64,000 nt of DNA from sequence record PV806337.1, one strand, 5' to 3'. A program made the position numbers and the translations under genes. The notes under the pieces were generated by a model. That model ran no database searches. It was not told the DNA's origin and saw only the letters and a program-made list of their open reading frames with translations. Origin of the DNA: a phage. This document shows, piece after piece, positions 5,567-32,075 of the stretch (within the stretch, counting starts at the first letter, position 1; every line of letters starts with the position of its first letter).

Positions 5567-7414
5567 TTACTTAGCTCGAATATCCTGATGTTTCACCCTG
5601 CCCATAACCTCATGCTGTTTGCCTGGGTTAAATGGACGAGCACCTGGATTTCCAAGATACCCACAAACTCGACGAGTTACTTCAAGAGTTTCGGGGTCAT
5701 GATTACCACAGATAGGGCACTTAAATCCATCTTCGGATGCTATTGTTTCACCTAAGAATCCACATTTACCACAAGAATCCACTGGAGTATTAATACCGAA
5801 GTAATGAACTTTACTAGCAGCATAATTAATAACCCATTCTAGTGCATCTGGGAATCGTTTCATATCCGGTAGTTCTACATAGGAAATACACCCACCAGAA
5901 GCAATCGGAGTAAAGTTAGATTCATAATCAAATTTCACATTGGGAGCAACTTTACGTTCCACATCAAGGTGGTGAGAGTTAGTGTAGTATCCTTTGGACA
6001 GAATATCTTCATGCTCCGGGAAATATTCACGATCTAAACGGCAAAACCTATCACACAGGGACTCTGACGGTGTAGCATACAGGCTATAACCTAACTTAGT
6101 TTCTTCCTTCTTCTGATCGACTCTATCTCGCATGTACTGCAATACACGCTGAACAAACTTGATGCTGGTCTCGGACATTGTGTCTACATCTTTGCCAAAC
6201 ATGAACTGTAGCATTTCATGACAACCAATATATCCTAGAGATACAGAAGCACGGTTATAGAAATGATCGAATACGTATTCATCAGGCTCCAAGCGCAGTC
6301 CAAAGGCTCCTGACATATAGAGGATGGGTGCAGCTTTAGCTTGAATGTATTTTAAGCGATCAACTCTCCACTCCAACGCTTTTAATGCTGTATCCACACG
6401 TAGCTCAAGCAAATCAAAGAATAGATCAATATTTCCTTCAGCTTCGATAGCAATTCTAGGCAAGTTTACAGAAACAACACCTAAGTTATTACGACCTGCA
6501 GTTTCACCATCTTCTGTAGCAGCTAGGAATGAACGGCAGCCCATAGAAACTTTATAGTCACCAGTAACTTCCACAACCTTATCATAGCTGATATAATCTG
6601 GATACATACGTTCAGCAGTACATTTCATAGCTAACTTCTTGATGTCATAATTAACATCCCCTGGTTTCATATTAACGCCATCACGGAGTACAAATACCAG
6701 TTTAGGGAAGATAGCTGTACGCTTATTGATACCTAAACCATCCATGCGTACTTTCAGTATTGCTTTCTGTACTAGACGTGCTTCCCAAGAAGTTCCTAGA
6801 CCAAAACCAAAGGTAATAAATGGACTCTGCCCATTAGAGTTGAACATGGTATTGATTTCATATTCTAAACCCTGACAAGCGTCATAGACTTCTTTTTCAG
6901 TCATCTCCGTAGCCATTACGGATGCTTTGGCTTCATCCTTAGTCCAACGTTTTGCAAACGCATGATTTTTGTCATAAGATTTACGAACATAAGGGGCTAA
7001 TACTTCATCAAGGCGATCTACAGAAGTACCACCATACTGATGGGAGCTAACCTGAGTGATAATCTGAGCAGTAATAGCCGCCGCAGTAGTGATAGAGTTT
7101 GGAGTGCTAATTTCAGCATTACCAACCTTCATACCATTCTTCAACATATCTTCCAGAGCTACCAGGCAACAGTTAGTCATACCTAATGCAGCATAATCAG
7201 CATCATGGAAATGAATATCCCCAATCATATGAGCATTTCGAATCTGAATTGGCATTTCTTCTAAAATCAGATACTTACTCAATTCACCTGCAAGCATATC
7301 CCTTTGTGTAGGGAAACGTTCACTCGGTTTGTTCGCGTTATTAAAAAGTAACTCTTCATTGGCAGATCCCTCAATAATTTCCTTACAATTTCTAATCAAT
7401 TCATCTTTGTTCAT
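5567..7414 (-). CDS. nrdD: anaerobic ribonucleoside-triphosphate reductase (class III RNR)
   Basis: ORF track 615 aa; C-terminal Zn ribbon CGKCG..CPICG and glycyl-radical motif RRVCGYLG. Confidence 0.85.
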   Translation of the reverse strand: MNKDELIRNCKEIIEGSANEELLFNNANKPSERFPTQRDMLAGELSKYLILEEMPIQIRNAHMIGDIHFHDADYAALGMTNCCLVALEDMLKNGMKVGNAEISTPNSITTAAAITAQIITQVSSHQYGGTSVDRLDEVLAPYVRKSYDKNHAFAKRWTKDEAKASVMATEMTEKEVYDACQGLEYEINTMFNSNGQSPFITFGFGLGTSWEARLVQKAILKVRMDGLGINKRTAIFPKLVFVLRDGVNMKPGDVNYDIKKLAMKCTAERMYPDYISYDKVVEVTGDYKVSMGCRSFLAATEDGETAGRNNLGVVSVNLPRIAIEAEGNIDLFFDLLELRVDTALKALEWRVDRLKYIQAKAAPILYMSGAFGLRLEPDEYVFDHFYNRASVSLGYIGCHEMLQFMFGKDVDTMSETSIKFVQRVLQYMRDRVDQKKEETKLGYSLYATPSESLCDRFCRLDREYFPEHEDILSKGYYTNSHHLDVERKVAPNVKFDYESNFTPIASGGCISYVELPDMKRFPDALEWVINYAASKVHYFGINTPVDSCGKCGFLGETIASEDGFKCPICGNHDPETLEVTRRVCGYLGNPGARPFNPGKQHEVMGRVKHQDIRAK

Positions 7415-20922: not shown

Positions 20923-20994
20923 GCCGTCCTAGTATAATTGGTATTATCAAGCCGTAACTGGTGGAAGATGTAGGTTCGAATCCTACGGTCGGTA
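20923..20994 (+). tRNA. tRNA-like gene, anticodon unresolved
   Basis: Canonical T-arm GTAGG-TTCGAAT-CCTAC followed by acceptor 3' strand; 5' acceptor pairs with one mismatch; no clean anticodon stem found by eye. Confidence 0.35.
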
Positions 20995-21605: not shown

Positions 21606-22553
21606 ATGTTTGCTACTAAAAATATGAAAGAACTGACTTCTGAGCAGAAAGTAATTCGTACTATTAAACGTTGGGGTATTGGTGCTGTAGTTGGTTTAGC
21701 AGGTTTAATCCTAGCTTTTAATTCATATACTATTGTTTCTGATGGTACGGTTAAAACCCAAACATTCCTGGGTAAAGTAGACCCTAATCCAGTATTGCCG
21801 GGCTTCCATCTTGTAAACCCGTTTGCATCTTTCGATACTTTTAGTACAAAAGATATTGCTGTAAAATTAGATAAACTTCAGGTTCCTAGCCAGGATAAGT
21901 TTAAATCCACTGTTGACCTGACTGTTATGTTGCAGTTTGATGGTTCTAAAGCACCGATTAACCGTATTAACGCAGGTACTCAGGATCAGGCACTAGACAA
22001 GTATGTAACTGAAAAATTACTGTCTACTATTCGTGAGTTTGGTAAGTCTGTACCTAAAGCACAAGATTTATTTGATGCTAAAATTCAGGCTCAATTGCAA
22101 ACTGCAATTCAACAGGAAGTTGAAGAGTATGCGCGCCCATATGGTTACACAGTTAAGCAGGTATTCCTTCAGGATATTACCTTGCCGCCAGTAATCATGG
22201 AACAGGTACAGAATACCAAAGTTCGTGAAGAGCAAGTTAATGCTGCGAAAGCTGAACTTGCTCGCGTTGAACAGGAAGCACAGCAAAAAGTTAAACAAGC
22301 AGAAGCAGATCGTGAAGCTCGTAACAACCAAGCTATTGCTAATGAACGTGACGCAGATGCTAAACTGTACGCAGCTAAGAAAGAAGCTGAAGCTAACGCC
22401 GCATTGCAACGTACCATTACTCCTGAAATGATTCGTTGGAAACAACTGGAAGTTGAAATGATCCGTGCTCAGAAGTATCAAGGTGGTGTACCTCAGACTG
22501 TGGTAGGTACTGGCTACGATGGTCAAATGATCATGGATATGCGTAACAAGTAA
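21606..22553 (+). CDS. SPFH/band-7 (prohibitin/HflK-like) membrane protein
   Basis: ORF track 315 aa; N-terminal TM segment, SPFH-like core, Ala/Glu/Gln-rich coiled-coil tail. Confidence 0.65.
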   Translation: MFATKNMKELTSEQKVIRTIKRWGIGAVVGLAGLILAFNSYTIVSDGTVKTQTFLGKVDPNPVLPGFHLVNPFASFDTFSTKDIAVKLDKLQVPSQDKFKSTVDLTVMLQFDGSKAPINRINAGTQDQALDKYVTEKLLSTIREFGKSVPKAQDLFDAKIQAQLQTAIQQEVEEYARPYGYTVKQVFLQDITLPPVIMEQVQNTKVREEQVNAAKAELARVEQEAQQKVKQAEADREARNNQAIANERDADAKLYAAKKEAEANAALQRTITPEMIRWKQLEVEMIRAQKYQGGVPQTVVGTGYDGQMIMDMRNK

Positions 22554-25201: not shown

Positions 25202-25279
25202 GGTTCTCAAGCTCATATGGTATGAGCACCCGGCTCATAACCGGAAGGTACGTAGGTTCGAATCCTCGGGGAGCCACCA
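25202..25279 (+). tRNA. tRNA with CAT anticodon (Met/fMet/Ile2 type)
   Basis: Acceptor GGTTCTC/GGGAGCC, D-stem GCTC/GAGC, anticodon loop CTCATAA, T-loop TTCGAAT with weak T-stem, CCA. Confidence 0.5.
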
Positions 25280-25784: not shown

Positions 25785-25861
25785 GGGGGTGTAATCGAAT
25801 TGGCATAGGTACTGGACTTAAAATTCAGGTTTTGTGGGTTCGAATCCCACCACCCCTACCA
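25785..25861 (+). tRNA. tRNA with TAA anticodon (Leu by anticodon) but short variable arm
   Basis: Acceptor GGGGGTG/CACCCCT, anticodon stem CTGGA/TTCAG, loop CTTAAAA, T-arm GTGGG-TTCGAAT-CCCAC, A73, CCA; variable region only 5 nt. Confidence 0.55.
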
Positions 25862-27003: not shown

Positions 27004-27078
27004 GCACCTTTAGCTGAGATGGATTAGCGCTTGCCTGAAGAGCTTGAGAGGTTGGATCGTTACCAACGGGGTGCTCCA
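27004..27078 (+). tRNA. tRNA-Phe-like (anticodon GAA), atypical
   Basis: Acceptor GCACCTT/GGGGTGC, anticodon loop CTGAAGA, non-canonical T-loop ATCGTTA, CCA; anticodon stem has two U-U mismatches. Confidence 0.45.
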
Positions 27079-29886: not shown

Positions 29887-29906
29887 CTTTAATAGAGGAT
29901 TTCGAA

Positions 29907-30074
29907 ATGAAAGTATTTCGATTAGTAGTAAGTGACAAACGTTTAGGTAAGAATACCTCAAAATCCTTACTTGCTCATTATGGAAAAGATGAGAAAGAAG
30001 TAATGGCGGAGTTTGGGATTAATCACCCTTACTTGAAAGTTCACTCTATTAAAGAAGTATATAATGGTTACTAA
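29907..30074 (+). CDS. hypothetical small protein
   Basis: 55-codon frame read by eye between tRNA-CAT and tRNA-Lys. Confidence 0.4.
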   Translation: MKVFRLVVSDKRLGKNTSKSLLAHYGKDEKEVMAEFGINHPYLKVHSIKEVYNGY

Positions 30075-30075
30075 T

Positions 30076-30154
30076 AGATCGCTAGCTCAATAGGTTTAGT
30101 AGCATCCGACTTTTAATCGGAAGGTTCTGGGTTCGAGTCCCAGGCGATCTACCA
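30076..30154 (+). tRNA. tRNA-Lys (anticodon TTT)
   Basis: Acceptor AGATCGC/GCGATCT perfect, anticodon stem TCCGA/TCGGA, loop CTTTTAA, T-loop TTCGAGT, CCA. Confidence 0.8.
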
Positions 30155-30172
30155 ATTTCAAGAAAAACGCAG

Positions 30173-30201
30173 TTGCTTGATGCTTAATTTCTTGTTATAA
30201 T
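30173..30201 (+). promoter_or_regulatory. T5-type promoter driving ORF-free segment and tRNA-Ala
   Basis: TTGCTT 30173-30178, 17 bp, TATAAT 30196-30201. Confidence 0.7.
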
Positions 30202-30438
30202 ATTTATATAAATTGATGAGGAGAAATCCTCATCATAGTTCACTAAGGTATTAGCTCGACCTAGGACTGGCTACCAAAAAGCACGATCCCTACGATTTGG
30301 AGAAGTTCTAGATTAGTCCACTAGATTCAGCGGCAACTGAATAGTGTATTGGGTTTGCGAGATGACGCAGTTCCTTCCGCTCGAAGCGAAGGTGCTGTAG
30401 TTACGCCGAGCTAATAGCCTTAGTAAACTAAAGAATTT

Positions 30439-30517
30439 GGGGGATGGGTCTGCTAGGGGTGGACACCTCACTTGCACCGAGGACATCAGAACGATTCGAA
30501 TTCGTTATCCTCCACCA
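30439..30517 (+). tRNA. tRNA-Ala (anticodon TGC)
   Basis: Acceptor GGGGGAT/ATCCTCC, D-stem GTCT/GGAC, anticodon loop CTTGCAC, T-arm AACGA-TTCGAAT-TCGTT, CCA. Confidence 0.6.
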
Positions 30518-30522
30518 AATAC

Positions 30523-30599
30523 GCGTGATTGATGGAATTGGCATACATACCGTCCTTAGAAGTCGGGTTTTGAGGGTTCGAATCCCTTGTCACGCACCA
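30523..30599 (+). tRNA. tRNA with TAG anticodon (Leu by anticodon) but short variable arm
   Basis: Acceptor GCGTGAT/GTCACGC, anticodon loop CTTAGAA, T-arm GAGGG-TTCGAAT-CCCTT, A73, CCA; 5-nt variable region. Confidence 0.5.
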
Positions 30600-30724
30600 A
30601 ATTTGATGGTCAGAGTAAATTAAACCTACTATCTCGGTTGAGCTGTTTTAATGGGTTCGAATCCCAGCGAGGCGTAACTGCCTGGTGTGATAGAGGCATC
30701 ATTCCACTAACATTGGAAAAACTA

Positions 30725-30955
30725 ATGAAACGAAAATTAAAAAAGTCTTATATAATTAAGATAAATAAGCTACGAAGTAGGGCAAAAGGATGGCCACTTC
30801 GAATATTAATTGCGGATAACCATACTAGATACCATGCGGAACAACGTCATTACAAACAGTGGGAGTCATACTGCCGCTCAAAAGCAGGTCGTTTAGATGG
30901 ATCTTATGAGTTTCTATTTGGTAAGAAGCCTACTAGAGTAGCTTTAGGTAATTAA
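30725..30955 (+). CDS. small basic protein
   Basis: In-frame ATG inside track ORF 30587-30955; upstream part carries a tRNA T-arm-like motif. Confidence 0.4.
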   Translation: MKRKLKKSYIIKINKLRSRAKGWPLRILIADNHTRYHAEQRHYKQWESYCRSKAGRLDGSYEFLFGKKPTRVALGN

Positions 30956-30959
30956 TACT

Positions 30960-31050
30960 TGGAAGAGCAAATCGAATTGGCGACGAAAACCGCTTGGAAA
31001 GTGGCTGACTGGTAAAACGGCTTGAGAGTTCAAATCTCTCCTCTTCCGCC
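30960..31050 (+). tRNA. tRNA-Ser (anticodon GGA)
   Basis: Anticodon loop TTGGAAA, long variable arm, T-arm GAGAG-TTCAAAT-CTCTC, acceptor 3' CTCTTCC, CCA. Confidence 0.6.
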
Positions 31051-31062
31051 AAACAATTTATA

Positions 31063-31157
31063 TGGTAGGTCAATCCAATGGCTGGCGTGGGACTCCGACT
31101 TGAAATCGGTTGATCGTAGTGATACGGTGTAAGGGTTCGATCCCCTTACCTACCTCC
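31063..31157 (+). tRNA. tRNA-Ser (anticodon TGA)
   Basis: Acceptor GGTAGGT/ACCTACC perfect, anticodon stem CCGA/TCGG, loop CTTGAAA, long variable arm, T-loop TTCGATC, CCA. Confidence 0.7.
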
Positions 31158-31523
31158 AAATCTTGAAGTATGCCGGAATCGGTAGACGGGGCTGCCTAAA
31201 AGGTTTATAGGGAACATCCACTCCCTGCAACATACCTCATAAAGCGGCTGAGATAAATGGTCTATCTCGTGAAGGTTCAAGTCCTTCTGCTTCTTGATAT
31301 ATCTATGGCTCAAAGTGTAACGGTGCTATTTGATGCTCTTAGTAAGACTTTCCCGACATGCGTTCGGGAGTAAGCTGCTAAGGCTAGAGTAGAAGAGTTT
31401 CGGAGAGCCGCCACAATTGAAAATTCGTACTCGTCTTGAGCTGCGCGCAATAGGAGATAACTTGATTAGTATTCTAGAACATGCTAATTGAGGATGGTTT
31501 CGCTAACCCTGCGAGTTTTCAAT

Positions 31524-31991: not shown

Positions 31992-31999
31992 AATAATAA

Positions 32000-32075
32000 G
32001 CGGTTAAGCACACGGGTTGTGTCGCAGGCCTTCCAAGCCTCGCTGAGTAGGGTTCGATTCCCTCTAGCCGCTCCA
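32000..32075 (+). tRNA. tRNA-Gly (anticodon TCC)
   Basis: Acceptor GCGGTTA/TAGCCGC, anticodon loop CTTCCAA, T-loop TTCGATT, U73, CCA. Confidence 0.8.

What the first reader, a model, noticed from the sequence alone, without database searches (positions are those of the whole stretch)
30523..30599. Second tRNA with Leu-type anticodon UAG and short variable arm
Anticodon loop CTTAGAA (anticodon UAG, reads CUA), A73 discriminator, 5-nt variable region, and a U-U mismatch in the anticodon stem. It repeats the atypical pattern seen at 25785-25861, which argues for a real class of compact Leu-type tRNAs in this phage rather than a one-off misfold. It is not an amber suppressor, which would need anticodon CUA.
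Basis: seen in the sequence. Interest (0 to 1): 0.5.

Follow-up and report, generated by a model that had tools for sequence, protein, structure and literature searches.

The report
Phage leucine tRNA lacking long arm
This is a real leucine tRNA gene of a T5-like phage that lacks the long extra arm every bacterial leucine tRNA normally has, and it belongs to a large, apparently undescribed class of such compact leucine tRNAs carried by many unrelated phages.

Summary
The window is a T5-like Tequintavirus. The tRNA has a class I outline but keeps the E. coli LeuRS identity set: A73, U8:A14, A15:U48, G18G19, A20a, and the 3-bp D-stem with G13/A22 typical of class II tRNA-Leu.

It is not a one-off. 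IMG/VR scans returned more than 100 distinct compact tRNAs with this D-arm. 51 of 60 in an anticodon-agnostic sample carry one of the six Leu anticodons, all with A73. 19 of 20 stem pairs show compensatory changes. Ser and Tyr tRNAs in the same clusters keep their long arms. BF23, DT57C, Felix O1 and Av-05 carry compact versions. Reference T5 carries a canonical 85-nt tRNA-Leu(UAG) at the same locus, so the two forms are interchangeable alleles.

CUA is about six times more frequent in the phage than in an E. coli sample, and it aligns with Leu in conserved enzymes. The most likely role is a LeuRS-charged decoder of CUA.

The gene is already annotated. I found no description of the class. One paper reports that E. 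coli LeuRS fails on a Streptomyces type I tRNA-Leu, so charging needs a direct test.

The parts
30523..30599 (+). Compact (type-I-shaped) tRNA-Leu(UAG) gene, 74 nt plus encoded CCA
   Evidence: ARAGORN. Rfam RF00005 scores 47.5 bits, E = 1.2e-7. Annotated tRNA-Leu(tag) in the 99.4%-identical phage vB_Eco_mar004NP2 and in BF23 and DT57C.
30523..30529 (+). Acceptor stem 5' strand GCGTGAT. It pairs with 30589-30595 (GTCACGC), giving G1-C72, C2-G71, G3-C70 and U7.G66
   Evidence: Read from the sequence and the ARAGORN drawing. All 7 acceptor pairs covary in the family. C2:G71 is present in 48 of 51 family members.
30530..30549 (+). U8 and G9, then a Leu-type D-arm: 3-bp stem ATG/CAT, and the loop G13 A14 A15 U16 U17 G18 G19 C20 A20a U21 A22, followed by A26
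   Evidence: Same length and layout as E. coli leuW. The motif occurs only at the two Leu genes in the window. The numbering and core triples come from PMC12360207.
30550..30566 (+). Anticodon arm: stem CCGTC/GTCGG with the U30.U40 mismatch (30553/30563), loop CTTAGAA, anticodon TAG at 30557-30559, and A37
   Evidence: An identical arm is found in Seunavirus GEC_vB_MG. 30:40 is G:C in 48 of 51 family members.
30567..30571 (+). 5-nt variable region GTTTT (G44 to U48). U48 is the partner of A15
   Evidence: U48 is invariant in 118 of 118 compact family members. This region aligns to the long allele of T5 and polluks with a single 8-nt gap here.
30572..30588 (+). T-arm GAGGG / TTCGAAT / CCCTT
   Evidence: Four of the 5 pairs covary.
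30596..30599 (+). Discriminator A73 and the encoded CCA end
   Evidence: A73 is present in 51 of 51 compact tRNAs with Leu anticodons in the anticodon-agnostic sample.
25785..25861 (+). Paralogous compact tRNA-Leu(UAA), with loop CTTAAAA and the same D-arm and variable region
   Evidence: (57.4 bits). It is about 82% identical to the UAG gene over positions 10-64.
30439..30517 (+). tRNA-Ala(UGC), an aberrant allele lying 5 nt upstream, probably in the same transcription unit
   Evidence: Annotated tRNA-Ala(tgc) in the closest relative. G3.U70 was read from the sequence. Missed by ARAGORN and Rfam.

Best explanation
The locus encodes a functional leucine tRNA with anticodon UAG that has lost the class II long variable arm. 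It keeps the tertiary-core and acceptor elements that E. coli-type LeuRS reads.

**Proposed mechanism**
1. It is transcribed with the upstream tRNA-Ala, and the CCA end is encoded. (Inferred.)
2. Host LeuRS charges it with leucine through A73, U8:A14, A15:U48, G18G19 and A20a. The arm is dispensable for this enzyme but not for SerRS or bacterial TyrRS, so only Leu tRNAs can shed it. (Inferred; the identity elements are shown to be present.)
3. It decodes CUA, and probably CUG by wobble. CUA is rare in the host and common in this AT-rich phage. The compact tRNA-Leu(UAA) does the same for UUA.

The gene is one allele of a swappable cassette. Other T5-like phages, including T5 itself, have a canonical long-arm tRNA-Leu(UAG) in the same place.
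For: **Gene and structure**
- Two predictors agree.
- The family cloverleaf is supported by 260 compensatory cells in 19 of 20 pairs.

**Leu identity**
- The D-arm has the same length and design as E. coli leuW and as the long phage alleles. In the window it occurs only in the two Leu genes.
- The E. coli Leu identity set is A73, A15-U48, G18G19, A20a and the D/T-loop tertiary pairs. The long arm and the anticodon are not required, and variants lacking the arm remain active (review PMC9976931). All of these elements are present here.
- In an anticodon-agnostic IMG/VR scan for this D-arm in a compact frame, 51 of 60 unique tRNAs carry one of the six Leu anticodons, and all 51 have A73. The 9 exceptions are separate Glu and Gln families with their own acceptor signatures.
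- U48 is invariant in 118 of 118.
- The arm loss is specific to Leu. In 145 viral loci with a compact Leu, 117 of 122 Ser and 55 of 57 Tyr stay long.

**Functional equivalence**
- T5 and polluks have an 85-nt class II tRNA-Leu(UAG) at the same locus, with near-identical flanks.

**Demand**
- CUA is 16.4 per 1000 codons in the phage against 2.7 per 1000 in an E. coli sample. UUA is 23.3 against 10.3.

**Meaning of CUA**
- CUA sites in NrdD, NrdA, NrdB and ThyA align with Leu in 48% of cases and with L/I/V/M/F in 81%, like the other Leu codons.
Against: - No aminoacylation or expression data for this allele were found.
- PMC6614811 reports that E. coli LeuRS could not charge the type I tRNA-Leu(CAA) of Streptomyces coelicolor, and states that EcLeuRS 'only charges type II tRNALeu'. 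That tRNA has C48 and a different variable loop (ACAGC), so the failure may not transfer. It does show that a short arm can matter.
- An abstract on M. tuberculosis LeuRS says the C-terminal domain of prokaryotic LeuRS contacts the long arm.
- The U30.U40 mismatch weakens the anticodon stem. The MFE fold of the unmodified sequence does not give the cloverleaf (z = -1.4).
- Position 37 is A, not the G (m1G37) of the host CUN-reading tRNA-Leu.
- The codon-usage match is a correlation only.
Confidence: 0.8

Rival explanations
1. The tRNA still serves as tRNA-Leu, but the compact form is kept mainly for a different reason: it escapes something that acts on the host's class II tRNA-Leu. That could be a defence or competitor tRNase, or dependence on host modification such as m1G37. 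On this view the tRNA keeps CUA and UUA decoding alive when host tRNA-Leu is attacked or depleted. This overlaps with the best explanation rather than excluding it.
For: - Phage tRNAs are proposed to evade anticodon nucleases through anticodon-loop changes (PMC10264068).
- The Sf14 study notes that phage tRNA-Leu-TAG differs from the host at three loop positions. The same is seen here: C32, A37 and A38 against U32, G37 and U38 in leuW.
- The compact form is essentially phage-borne. A compact-specific pattern found only 18 stretches in 185,579 species' genomes, all in MAG contigs, and the tRNA has no match in 5,426 E. coli genomes.
- In two MAG tRNA arrays, compact Leu genes sit next to an RtcB tRNA-repair ligase.
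- A prophage terminase that fragments tRNA-Leu in Salmonella is reported (abstract of PMC11610961).
Against: - None of the papers read here describes a bacterial nuclease that recognises the long variable arm.
- The one bacterial Schlafen studied cuts class I tRNAs at position 30/31 and is not type-II-specific.
- 44 viral loci carry both compact and long Leu tRNAs.
- The long and compact alleles both persist among T5-likes that infect the same hosts.
- A37 is also present in the long T5 allele, so the loop changes are not tied to arm loss.
Confidence: 0.2
2. The tRNA is charged with an amino acid other than leucine. It would then recode CUA or make it ambiguous, as the yeast mitochondrial tRNA-Thr(UAG) does for CUN.
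For: It has a class I shape with a Leu anticodon. G1-C72 and C2-G71 resemble the acceptor determinants of ThrRS (my own recollection of the identity rules, not tested). The isotype call by ARAGORN rests on the anticodon alone.
Against: - CUA sites align with Leu or hydrophobic residues exactly like the other Leu codons. Thr aligns at only 1 of 27 sites.
- The anticodon loop is a normal 7 nt.
- There is no G3.U70 (Ala determinant). G73 and the long arm (Ser determinants) are absent.
- The other synthetases that accept A73 read anticodon bases that are absent here (identity rules in PMC9976931).
- A canonical tRNA-Leu(UAG) occupies the same locus in sister phages.
- The host's own leuW reads CUA as Leu, so mischarging would make decoding ambiguous.
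Confidence: 0.03
3. The gene is a decaying or non-translational tRNA-like element, for example a processing signal or a stable RNA like the several 'tRNA-like stable RNAs' annotated in the T5 tRNA region.
For: - T5 has several annotated tRNA-like stable RNAs of unknown function in this region.
- The anticodon stem carries a U.U mismatch.
- The neighbouring tRNA-Ala allele is aberrant enough to be missed by two predictors.
- A 3'-half tRNA remnant lies just downstream.
Against: - The sequence is 100% identical in many independent phage isolates.
- All universal tRNA positions, the CCA end, A73 and U33 are intact.
- The family shows pervasive compensatory evolution, and its anticodons are restricted to Leu. 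This is not expected for a non-decoding element.
Confidence: 0.04

Closest known systems
Canonical bacterial and phage class II tRNA-Leu (E. coli leuW tRNA-Leu(UAG); phage T5 'tRNAL1(UAG)')
   Same: - Same anticodon and A73.
- Same D-arm design: 3-bp stem, purine 13, AAUUGG, N20, A20a and A22.
- U8:A14, the A15:U48 pair and the T-loop are also shared.
- The T5 long allele sits at the same genomic locus, between the same flanks, and also has A37.
   Different: - The 13-nt variable arm is replaced by 5 nt (GUUUU), which aligns as an 8-nt gap.
- Position 21 is U, where long forms mostly have the G that forms the 13-21-22 triple.
- Compared with host leuW, the loop is C32/A37/A38 rather than U32/G37/U38.
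Type I tRNA-Leu(CAA) of Streptomyces coelicolor (PMC6614811)
   Same: It is a tRNA-Leu from the bacterial world with a 5-nt variable loop, and it coexists with type II tRNA-Leu. It has been shown experimentally to be leucylated by a single bacterial LeuRS. A minimum of five variable-loop nucleotides, including nucleotide 48, is needed.
   Different: - Its variable loop is ACAGC with C48, against RUUUU with invariant U48 here.
- In Streptomyces, A73 is not an identity element and a special LeuRS leucine-specific domain is needed.
- EcLeuRS did not charge the Streptomyces tRNA.
- The phage family is carried by phages of enterobacteria and many unknown hosts, and it keeps the E. coli-type identity set.
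Animal mitochondrial tRNA-Leu (UUR and CUN), which are type I
   Same: It has a short variable loop. Identity rests on A73 and A14 rather than on the arm (PMC9976931).
   Different: Mitochondrial tRNAs have degenerate D/T-loop interactions and a dedicated mitochondrial LeuRS. The phage tRNA has a fully canonical elbow (G18G19, T54 T55 C56) and must rely on the host's cytoplasmic LeuRS.
Engineered E. coli tRNA-Leu variants lacking the variable arm (Larkin 2002, Asahara 1998 and Tocchini-Valentini 2000, as summarised in PMC9976931)
   Same: They show that E. coli LeuRS does not need the long arm, provided A73 and the D/T-loop tertiary structure are intact. The natural phage tRNA has exactly that layout.
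   Different: Those are laboratory constructs. The phage tRNAs are natural, evolutionarily maintained versions. I could not read the primary papers, so I could not compare kinetic penalties.

Membership tests
tRNA (Rfam RF00005) | Cloverleaf with a 7-bp acceptor stem, D, anticodon and T arms, scoring above the family threshold | tested here: met
   47.5 bits against a gathering score of 29. ARAGORN structure. 19 of 20 pairs covary in the family.
tRNA (Rfam RF00005) | Universal nucleotides: U8, A14, G18G19, U33, G53 T54 T55 C56, A58 and C61, with a 7-nt anticodon loop | tested here: met
   All are present in the sequence and invariant in the 51-sequence family table.
tRNA-Leu as recognised by E. 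coli-type LeuRS | Discriminator A73 | tested here: met
   A at 30596. A73 is present in 51 of 51 compact tRNAs with Leu anticodons. The identity rule is from PMC9976931.
tRNA-Leu as recognised by E. coli-type LeuRS | Tertiary core: U8:A14, the A15:U48 Levitt pair, G18G19 in the Leu-specific position of the D-loop, and A20a | tested here: met
   The sequence from position 8 to 26 is UG-AUG-GAAUUGGCAUA-CAU-A, the same length and register as leuW. U48 is present in 118 of 118. The triples are defined in PMC12360207. Only the nucleotides were checked, not the 3D contacts.
tRNA-Leu as recognised by E. coli-type LeuRS | C2-G71, an antideterminant against SerRS | tested here: met
   C30524 pairs with G30594. 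C2:G71 is present in 48 of 51 family members. The rule is from PMC9976931.
tRNA-Leu as recognised by E. coli-type LeuRS | Actual leucylation by host LeuRS | not testable with these tools
   No charging data for this allele were found. EcLeuRS failed on a different type I tRNA-Leu (PMC6614811).
Class II (type II) tRNA | Long variable arm of more than 10 nt that forms a stem-loop | tested here: not met
   The variable region is 5 nt, GTTTT. There is an 8-nt gap relative to the T5 and polluks long allele. The Ser and Tyr tRNAs in the window are 89-95 nt.
Host-type CUN-reading tRNA-Leu | G37, the substrate for m1G37 | tested here: not met
   The loop is CUUAGAA, so position 37 is A. leuW has UUUAGGU with G37. 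The long T5 allele also has A37.
Type I tRNA-Leu (Streptomyces coelicolor type) | 5-nt variable loop including nucleotide 48, with a Leu anticodon | tested here: met
   The loop sequence differs (GUUUU against ACAGC).
Type I tRNA-Leu (Streptomyces coelicolor type) | Common descent or sequence similarity with ScotRNA-Leu(CAA) | not tested
Amber suppressor tRNA | Anticodon CUA | tested here: not met
   The anticodon is TAG on the + strand, which is UAG and reads CUA/CUG codons.
CUN-reassigning tRNA (yeast mitochondrial tRNA-Thr(UAG) type) | Enlarged 8-nt anticodon loop, and CUN positions that behave as Thr | tested here: not met
   The loop is 7 nt. CUA sites align with Leu at 13 of 27 positions and with Thr at 1 of 27.

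The most novel reading that the evidence does not exclude
Loss of the long variable arm from tRNA-Leu is a recurrent, phage-specific innovation. It is found for all six Leu anticodons across many phage lineages, but almost never in cellular genomes. On this reading it is maintained because it makes the phage's Leu decoding independent of something that acts on host class II tRNA-Leu, such as a defence or competitor tRNase, or a host modification or processing step.

A corollary follows. Enterobacterial LeuRS would then naturally charge type I tRNA-Leu, contrary to the published statement that EcLeuRS only charges type II.
Probability: 0.18. Interest if true: 0.7.

Novelty: new variant of a known kind. 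Interest (0 to 1): 0.5.

Why it matters
Textbooks, and the 2019 Streptomyces study, treat bacterial tRNA-Leu as class II almost without exception. [quoted passage not shown]

Here classical coliphages and Salmonella phages (BF23, DT57C, Felix O1, Av-05) and more than 100 distinct metagenomic phage sequences carry arm-less tRNA-Leu genes that are under clear purifying and compensatory selection. If host LeuRS charges them, three things follow:
- They are natural proof that the arm is dispensable in vivo.
- They define the minimal natural Leu identity set.
- They offer a compact scaffold for tRNA engineering.

The natural pair of long and compact alleles at one locus in T5-like phages is a ready-made experimental system. 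It can be used to ask why phages shed the arm: economy, escape from nucleases, or independence from host modification.

There is also a practical point. Annotation is inconsistent ('tRNA-OTHER', unannotated, or overlapped by protein calls), so isotype-specific tRNA models are likely to mis-score this class.

Tried and rejected
- **Host capture.** blastn of the tRNA against 5,426 E. coli genomes gave no match even at E <= 10. It is not a recent host capture or an E. coli prophage gene.
- **Thermodynamic folding.** The MFE structure of the unmodified sequence is not the cloverleaf and is not unusually stable (z = -1.4). This is uninformative for tRNAs, so I relied on covariation instead.
- **Promoter and terminator scan** of 29900-31200: no promoter-like site, and one weak terminator-like site on the minus strand. 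Uninformative.
- **Schlafen idea.** I considered that bacterial Schlafen nucleases, like human SLFN11, target long-arm tRNAs. I rejected this as stated. The characterised RorSlfn5 cleaves class I tRNAs (Lys, Met, and T5 tRNA-Ala) between nucleotides 30 and 31, and no supplementary tables were held.
- **My early assumption that T5 itself carries this gene was wrong.** Reference T5 has the long allele. The T5 tRNA-Ala discussed in the Schlafen paper is therefore also not the aberrant Ala allele of this window.
- **Literature.** Ten searches found no description of arm-less phage tRNA-Leu. Larkin 2002 (PMC115294) and Scherberg & Weiss 1970 (PMC283332) are not held. I therefore could not verify the kinetic cost of arm deletion or the classical charging data.
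- **Recoding of CUA.** Rejected on the alignment test.
- **Census limits.** The proportions given are for samples, not a census.

Full report
**1. The observation**

The sequence at 30523-30599 reads GCGTGAT TG ATG GAATTGGCATA CAT A CCGTC CTTAGAA GTCGG GTTTT GAGGG TTCGAAT CCCTT GTCACGC A CCA.
- ARAGORN calls it tRNA-Leu(tag) at exactly these coordinates. Its drawing shows a 7-bp acceptor stem, a 3-bp D-stem with an 11-nt D-loop, an anticodon stem with a t.t mismatch, a 5-nt variable region and a normal T-arm.
- The Rfam tRNA model gives 47.5 bits (threshold 29), E = 1.2e-7.

**2. Source and annotation**

The window is 99.4% identical over this region to Escherichia phage vB_Eco_mar004NP2 (Demerecviridae, Tequintavirus). 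That record annotates tRNA-Ala(tgc) followed 5 nt later by tRNA-Leu(tag). BF23 and DT57C carry the identical or near-identical gene, annotated tRNA-Leu(UAG). Other records label it 'tRNA-OTHER', leave it unannotated, or overlay a protein call. The gene itself is therefore already in public annotation.

**3. Does the body of the tRNA look like tRNA-Leu?**

ARAGORN names the isotype from the anticodon, so the body had to be checked separately.

A recent review gives the E. coli identity rules (PMC9976931). A73 is crucial. The A15-U48 pair, G18G19, A20a and the D/T-loop tertiary pairs matter. The anticodon and the long variable arm do not, and variants lacking the arm stay active. C2-G71 is an antideterminant against SerRS.

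The phage tRNA has all of these. From position 8 to 26 it has the same length and register as host leuW: UG-AUG-G-AAUUGG-C-A-U-A-CAU-A against UG-GCG-A-AAUUGG-U-A-G-A-CGC-A.

Crystal structures of type II tRNA-Leu define the core triples U8-A14-A20a, G/A13-G21-A22 and G9-G12-C23, with A20a standing in for the A21 of class I tRNAs (PMC12360207). So the phage tRNA keeps a class II-type D-arm joined to a class I-type variable loop. In the window this D-arm motif occurs only in the two Leu genes.

**4. A family, not a one-off**

- blastn finds the 77-mer in 569 phage records. 162 are at least 95% identical (T5-likes). Several hundred more are 75-88% identical and belong to Felixounavirus, Vequintavirinae (Seunavirus GEC_vB_MG, Avunavirus Av-05) and others.
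- It finds nothing in 5,426 E. coli genomes.
- An IMG/VR scan used a pattern that fixes only the D-loop and the CTTAGAA anticodon loop. It returned 112 tRNA-Leu(tag) genes: 77 compact (61 unique) and 35 long-arm (31 unique).
- In 51 unique 74-nt compact sequences, several positions the pattern did not constrain are conserved: A73 51/51, U48 51/51, U8 51/51 and C2:G71 48/51.
- On a 46-sequence alignment, 99.0% of cells are paired and 19 of 20 pairs show changes on both sides (260 cells). 0 of 500 shuffles match this. Sliding the 3' partners by 1-3 columns drops pairing to 35-44%.
- Caveat: I kept only sequences with at least 17 of 20 pairs, which inflates the percentage paired. It does not inflate the count of compensatory changes.

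**5. Is the Leu-type body tied to Leu anticodons?**

A second IMG/VR scan fixed the D-arm and the compact spacing to the T-arm, but left the anticodon free.
- Among the 80 listed loci there are 60 unique cloverleaf-consistent tRNAs. 51 carry a Leu anticodon: UAG 22, UAA 16, AAG 5, CAA 4, CAG 3, GAG 1. All 51 have A73.
- The nine others are a Glu(UUC) group with G2.U71, Gln(UUG) with U1 (one with G73), and one UCA. Seven of the nine have G instead of U at position 21.

So the compact Leu-type body evolves by anticodon changes within the Leu box. That is what is expected if LeuRS, which ignores the anticodon, is the cognate enzyme.

**6. Why only Leu?**

I ran ARAGORN on 209 viral loci (1.9 Mb, 2,530 tRNAs). 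In the 145 loci that hold a compact Leu, 117 of 122 tRNA-Ser and 55 of 57 tRNA-Tyr keep long arms and none of the Tyr are short, while 215 of 280 Leu are compact.

This fits the identity rules. [quoted passage not shown] For bacterial TyrRS the use of the arm is my own recollection and was not checked here. For LeuRS the arm is dispensable.

There is also a correlated change in the core. Position 21 is U in 114 of 144 compact Leu tRNAs and G in 43 of 56 long ones (odds ratio 12.6, not corrected for phylogeny). This is the nucleotide of the 13-21-22 triple. The switch suggests the core is rebuilt when the arm is lost, but that is an inference.

**7. Allelic replacement at the locus**

- Salmonella phage polluks and reference T5 (NC_005859, 'tRNAL1(UAG)') have an 85-nt class II tRNA-Leu(UAG) in exactly this position.
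- A three-way alignment shows near-identical flanks up to the tRNA boundaries. The Ala and Leu genes themselves are divergent. The compact gene aligns to the long one with a single 8-nt gap at the variable arm.
- The long allele occurs at 90% identity or more in 55 phage records. The compact allele occurs at 95% or more in 162.
- The region is rich in HNH homing endonucleases in T5, which gives a plausible route for cassette exchange. That route is an inference.
- T5 also lacks the compact tRNA-Leu(UAA). A homing-endonuclease gene sits there instead.

That a canonical tRNA-Leu(UAG) and the compact gene substitute for each other in sister phages of the same hosts is good indirect evidence that they do the same job.

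**8. Function**

- The window has 39% G+C. In 58 long ORFs (12.5 k codons) CUA is 16.4 per 1000 (19% of Leu codons) and UUA is 23.3 per 1000 (28%). In 49 annotated genes from a 50-kb E. coli K-12 sample the values are 2.7 (2.6%) and 10.3 (10%). The two phage Leu anticodons therefore match the two Leu codons most enriched in the phage.
- I tested recoding by aligning phage NrdD, NrdA, NrdB and ThyA with their E. coli homologues (33-55% identity). The 27 CUA sites align with Leu in 48% of cases and with L/I/V/M/F in 81%. That matches CUU, CUG and UUA, and is unlike the Ile, Val, Thr, Ser and Ala control codons.

**9. What speaks against charging, and what is unknown**

- The one experimental study of a bacterial type I tRNA-Leu is on S. 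coelicolor tRNA-Leu(CAA), whose variable loop is ACAGC. Its own LeuRS charges it, but E. coli LeuRS does not. The authors describe EcLeuRS as charging only type II (PMC6614811).
- That tRNA lacks U48, and in that system A73 is not an identity element. The phage family conserves both absolutely. So the negative result may not apply here, but it means leucylation by enterobacterial LeuRS must be shown, not assumed.
- I found no expression or charging data for this allele. The classical T5 papers were not available, and in any case concern a phage with the long allele.
- The U30.U40 mismatch is unusual for the family, where 30:40 is G:C in 48 of 51. It is conserved in an identical anticodon arm in the unrelated Seunavirus GEC_vB_MG. 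Weak 30:40 pairs (G.U, U.G) occur in S124 and Xanthomonas phage X1. Its meaning is unknown.

**10. Distribution outside phages**

A compact-specific pattern found only 18 stretches in one genome each of 185,579 bacterial and archaeal species. All are in MAG contigs. Those examined lie in dense arrays of 4-23 tRNAs, where the other Leu genes are also 77-78 nt. Two arrays on contigs larger than 1 Mb are flanked by an RtcB tRNA ligase and an SPFH/Band-7 protein. I had no matched count for long-arm forms, so this supports 'essentially phage- or mobile-element-borne' only qualitatively.

**11. Comparison with what is known, and verdict**

- The object is a tRNA (membership met) and very probably a tRNA-Leu. 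All sequence-level identity elements are met, but charging is untested.
- It is not a class II tRNA (tested, not met), not an amber suppressor, and not a CUN-reassigning tRNA.
- It works like the engineered arm-less E. coli tRNA-Leu variants. In outline it resembles the type I tRNA-Leu of mitochondria and Streptomyces. It differs from both by keeping the class II-type D-arm and the E. coli identity set.
- Ten full-text searches found no description of arm-less tRNA-Leu in phages. The only paper using the phrase 'type I tRNALeu' is the Streptomyces one, and it does not mention phages. The library lacks most subscription-journal papers, including the 1980s T5 and BF23 tRNA sequencing work, so earlier notice cannot be excluded.
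- I rate it a new variant of a known kind. As a single gene it is ordinary and already annotated. It is interesting because it points to a broad, testable and apparently overlooked class.

Noticed in passing
window 30439-30517 (+): The tRNA-Ala(UGC) 5 nt upstream of the Leu gene is an aberrant allele. G3.U70 is intact, but it has G at position 8, an A31.C39 mismatch and an apparent 7-nt variable region (ACATCAG). ARAGORN and Rfam (E <= 1) both miss it, yet the closest relative annotates it as tRNA-Ala(tgc). T5, polluks, BF23 and DT57C have different, canonical-length Ala alleles between the same flanks.
   Followed up: partly
window 30600-30700 (+): Just downstream of the Leu gene is a T-arm-like TGGGTTCGAATCCCA followed by GCGAGGC, with no matching 5' acceptor strand. 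It looks like the 3' half of a tRNA. It is conserved in phage polluks but replaced by the hegC homing-endonuclease gene in T5. The fold is not significant (z = -0.3).
   Followed up: partly
window 25202-25276, 27004-27075, 31999-32072, 20923-20994 (+): Rfam finds tRNAs here that ARAGORN misses. By synteny with the curated T5 record, the first three correspond to tRNA-Ile2(CAU), tRNA-Phe(GAA) and tRNA-Gly(UCC). The Gly only scores as a weak tRNA-Sec-like hit. 20923-20994 (35.5 bits) was not identified.
   Followed up: partly
window about 30300-30430 (+): This region is nearly identical to the 3' part of T5 'RNA2H', annotated as a stable RNA of unknown function. It lies directly upstream of the tRNA-Ala/tRNA-Leu pair.
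   Followed up: no
window 21606-22553 (+); L122:917-4018; L137:2813-7483: An SPFH/Band-7 protein gene lies beside the tRNA cluster in the window. SPFH/Band-7 together with an RtcB tRNA ligase flank tRNA arrays that carry compact Leu genes on two MAG contigs larger than 1 Mb. This may be a recurrent tRNA-array / RtcB / SPFH module.
   Followed up: partly
L140, L142, L150, L156, L158, L227, L228 (IMG/VR loci): Compact tRNA-Leu genes with anticodon AAG (A34, loop CTAAGAA). From my own recollection, A34 is unusual in bacterial-type tRNA-Leu and raises the question of inosine formation or direct A34 decoding of CUU.
   Followed up: no
L129:5882-5956 and 6983-7072 (Anaeroplasmatales MAG contig): The 18-tRNA array that contains a compact tRNA-Leu(UAG) also holds a tRNA with anticodon CUA (ARAGORN calls it 'tRNA-Pyl'; it is an amber suppressor type) and a long-arm tRNA with anticodon ACU. 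This hints at a stop-codon-recoding phage or mobile element.
   Followed up: no
L148, L153, L160, L165, L169, L178, L208, L214, L215 (IMG/VR loci): A family of 74-nt tRNA-Glu(UUC) genes shares the Leu-like D-loop GAATTGGTAGAG on a 3-bp stem. Most have G2.U71 and A73.
   Followed up: no
L236:147-224 (Salmonella phage FO1a / Felix O1): Felix O1 has a 78-nt compact tRNA-Leu(UAG) variant with one extra nucleotide in the D region (TGATGGTAATTGGTAAACCT). It is not annotated in that record.
   Followed up: partly
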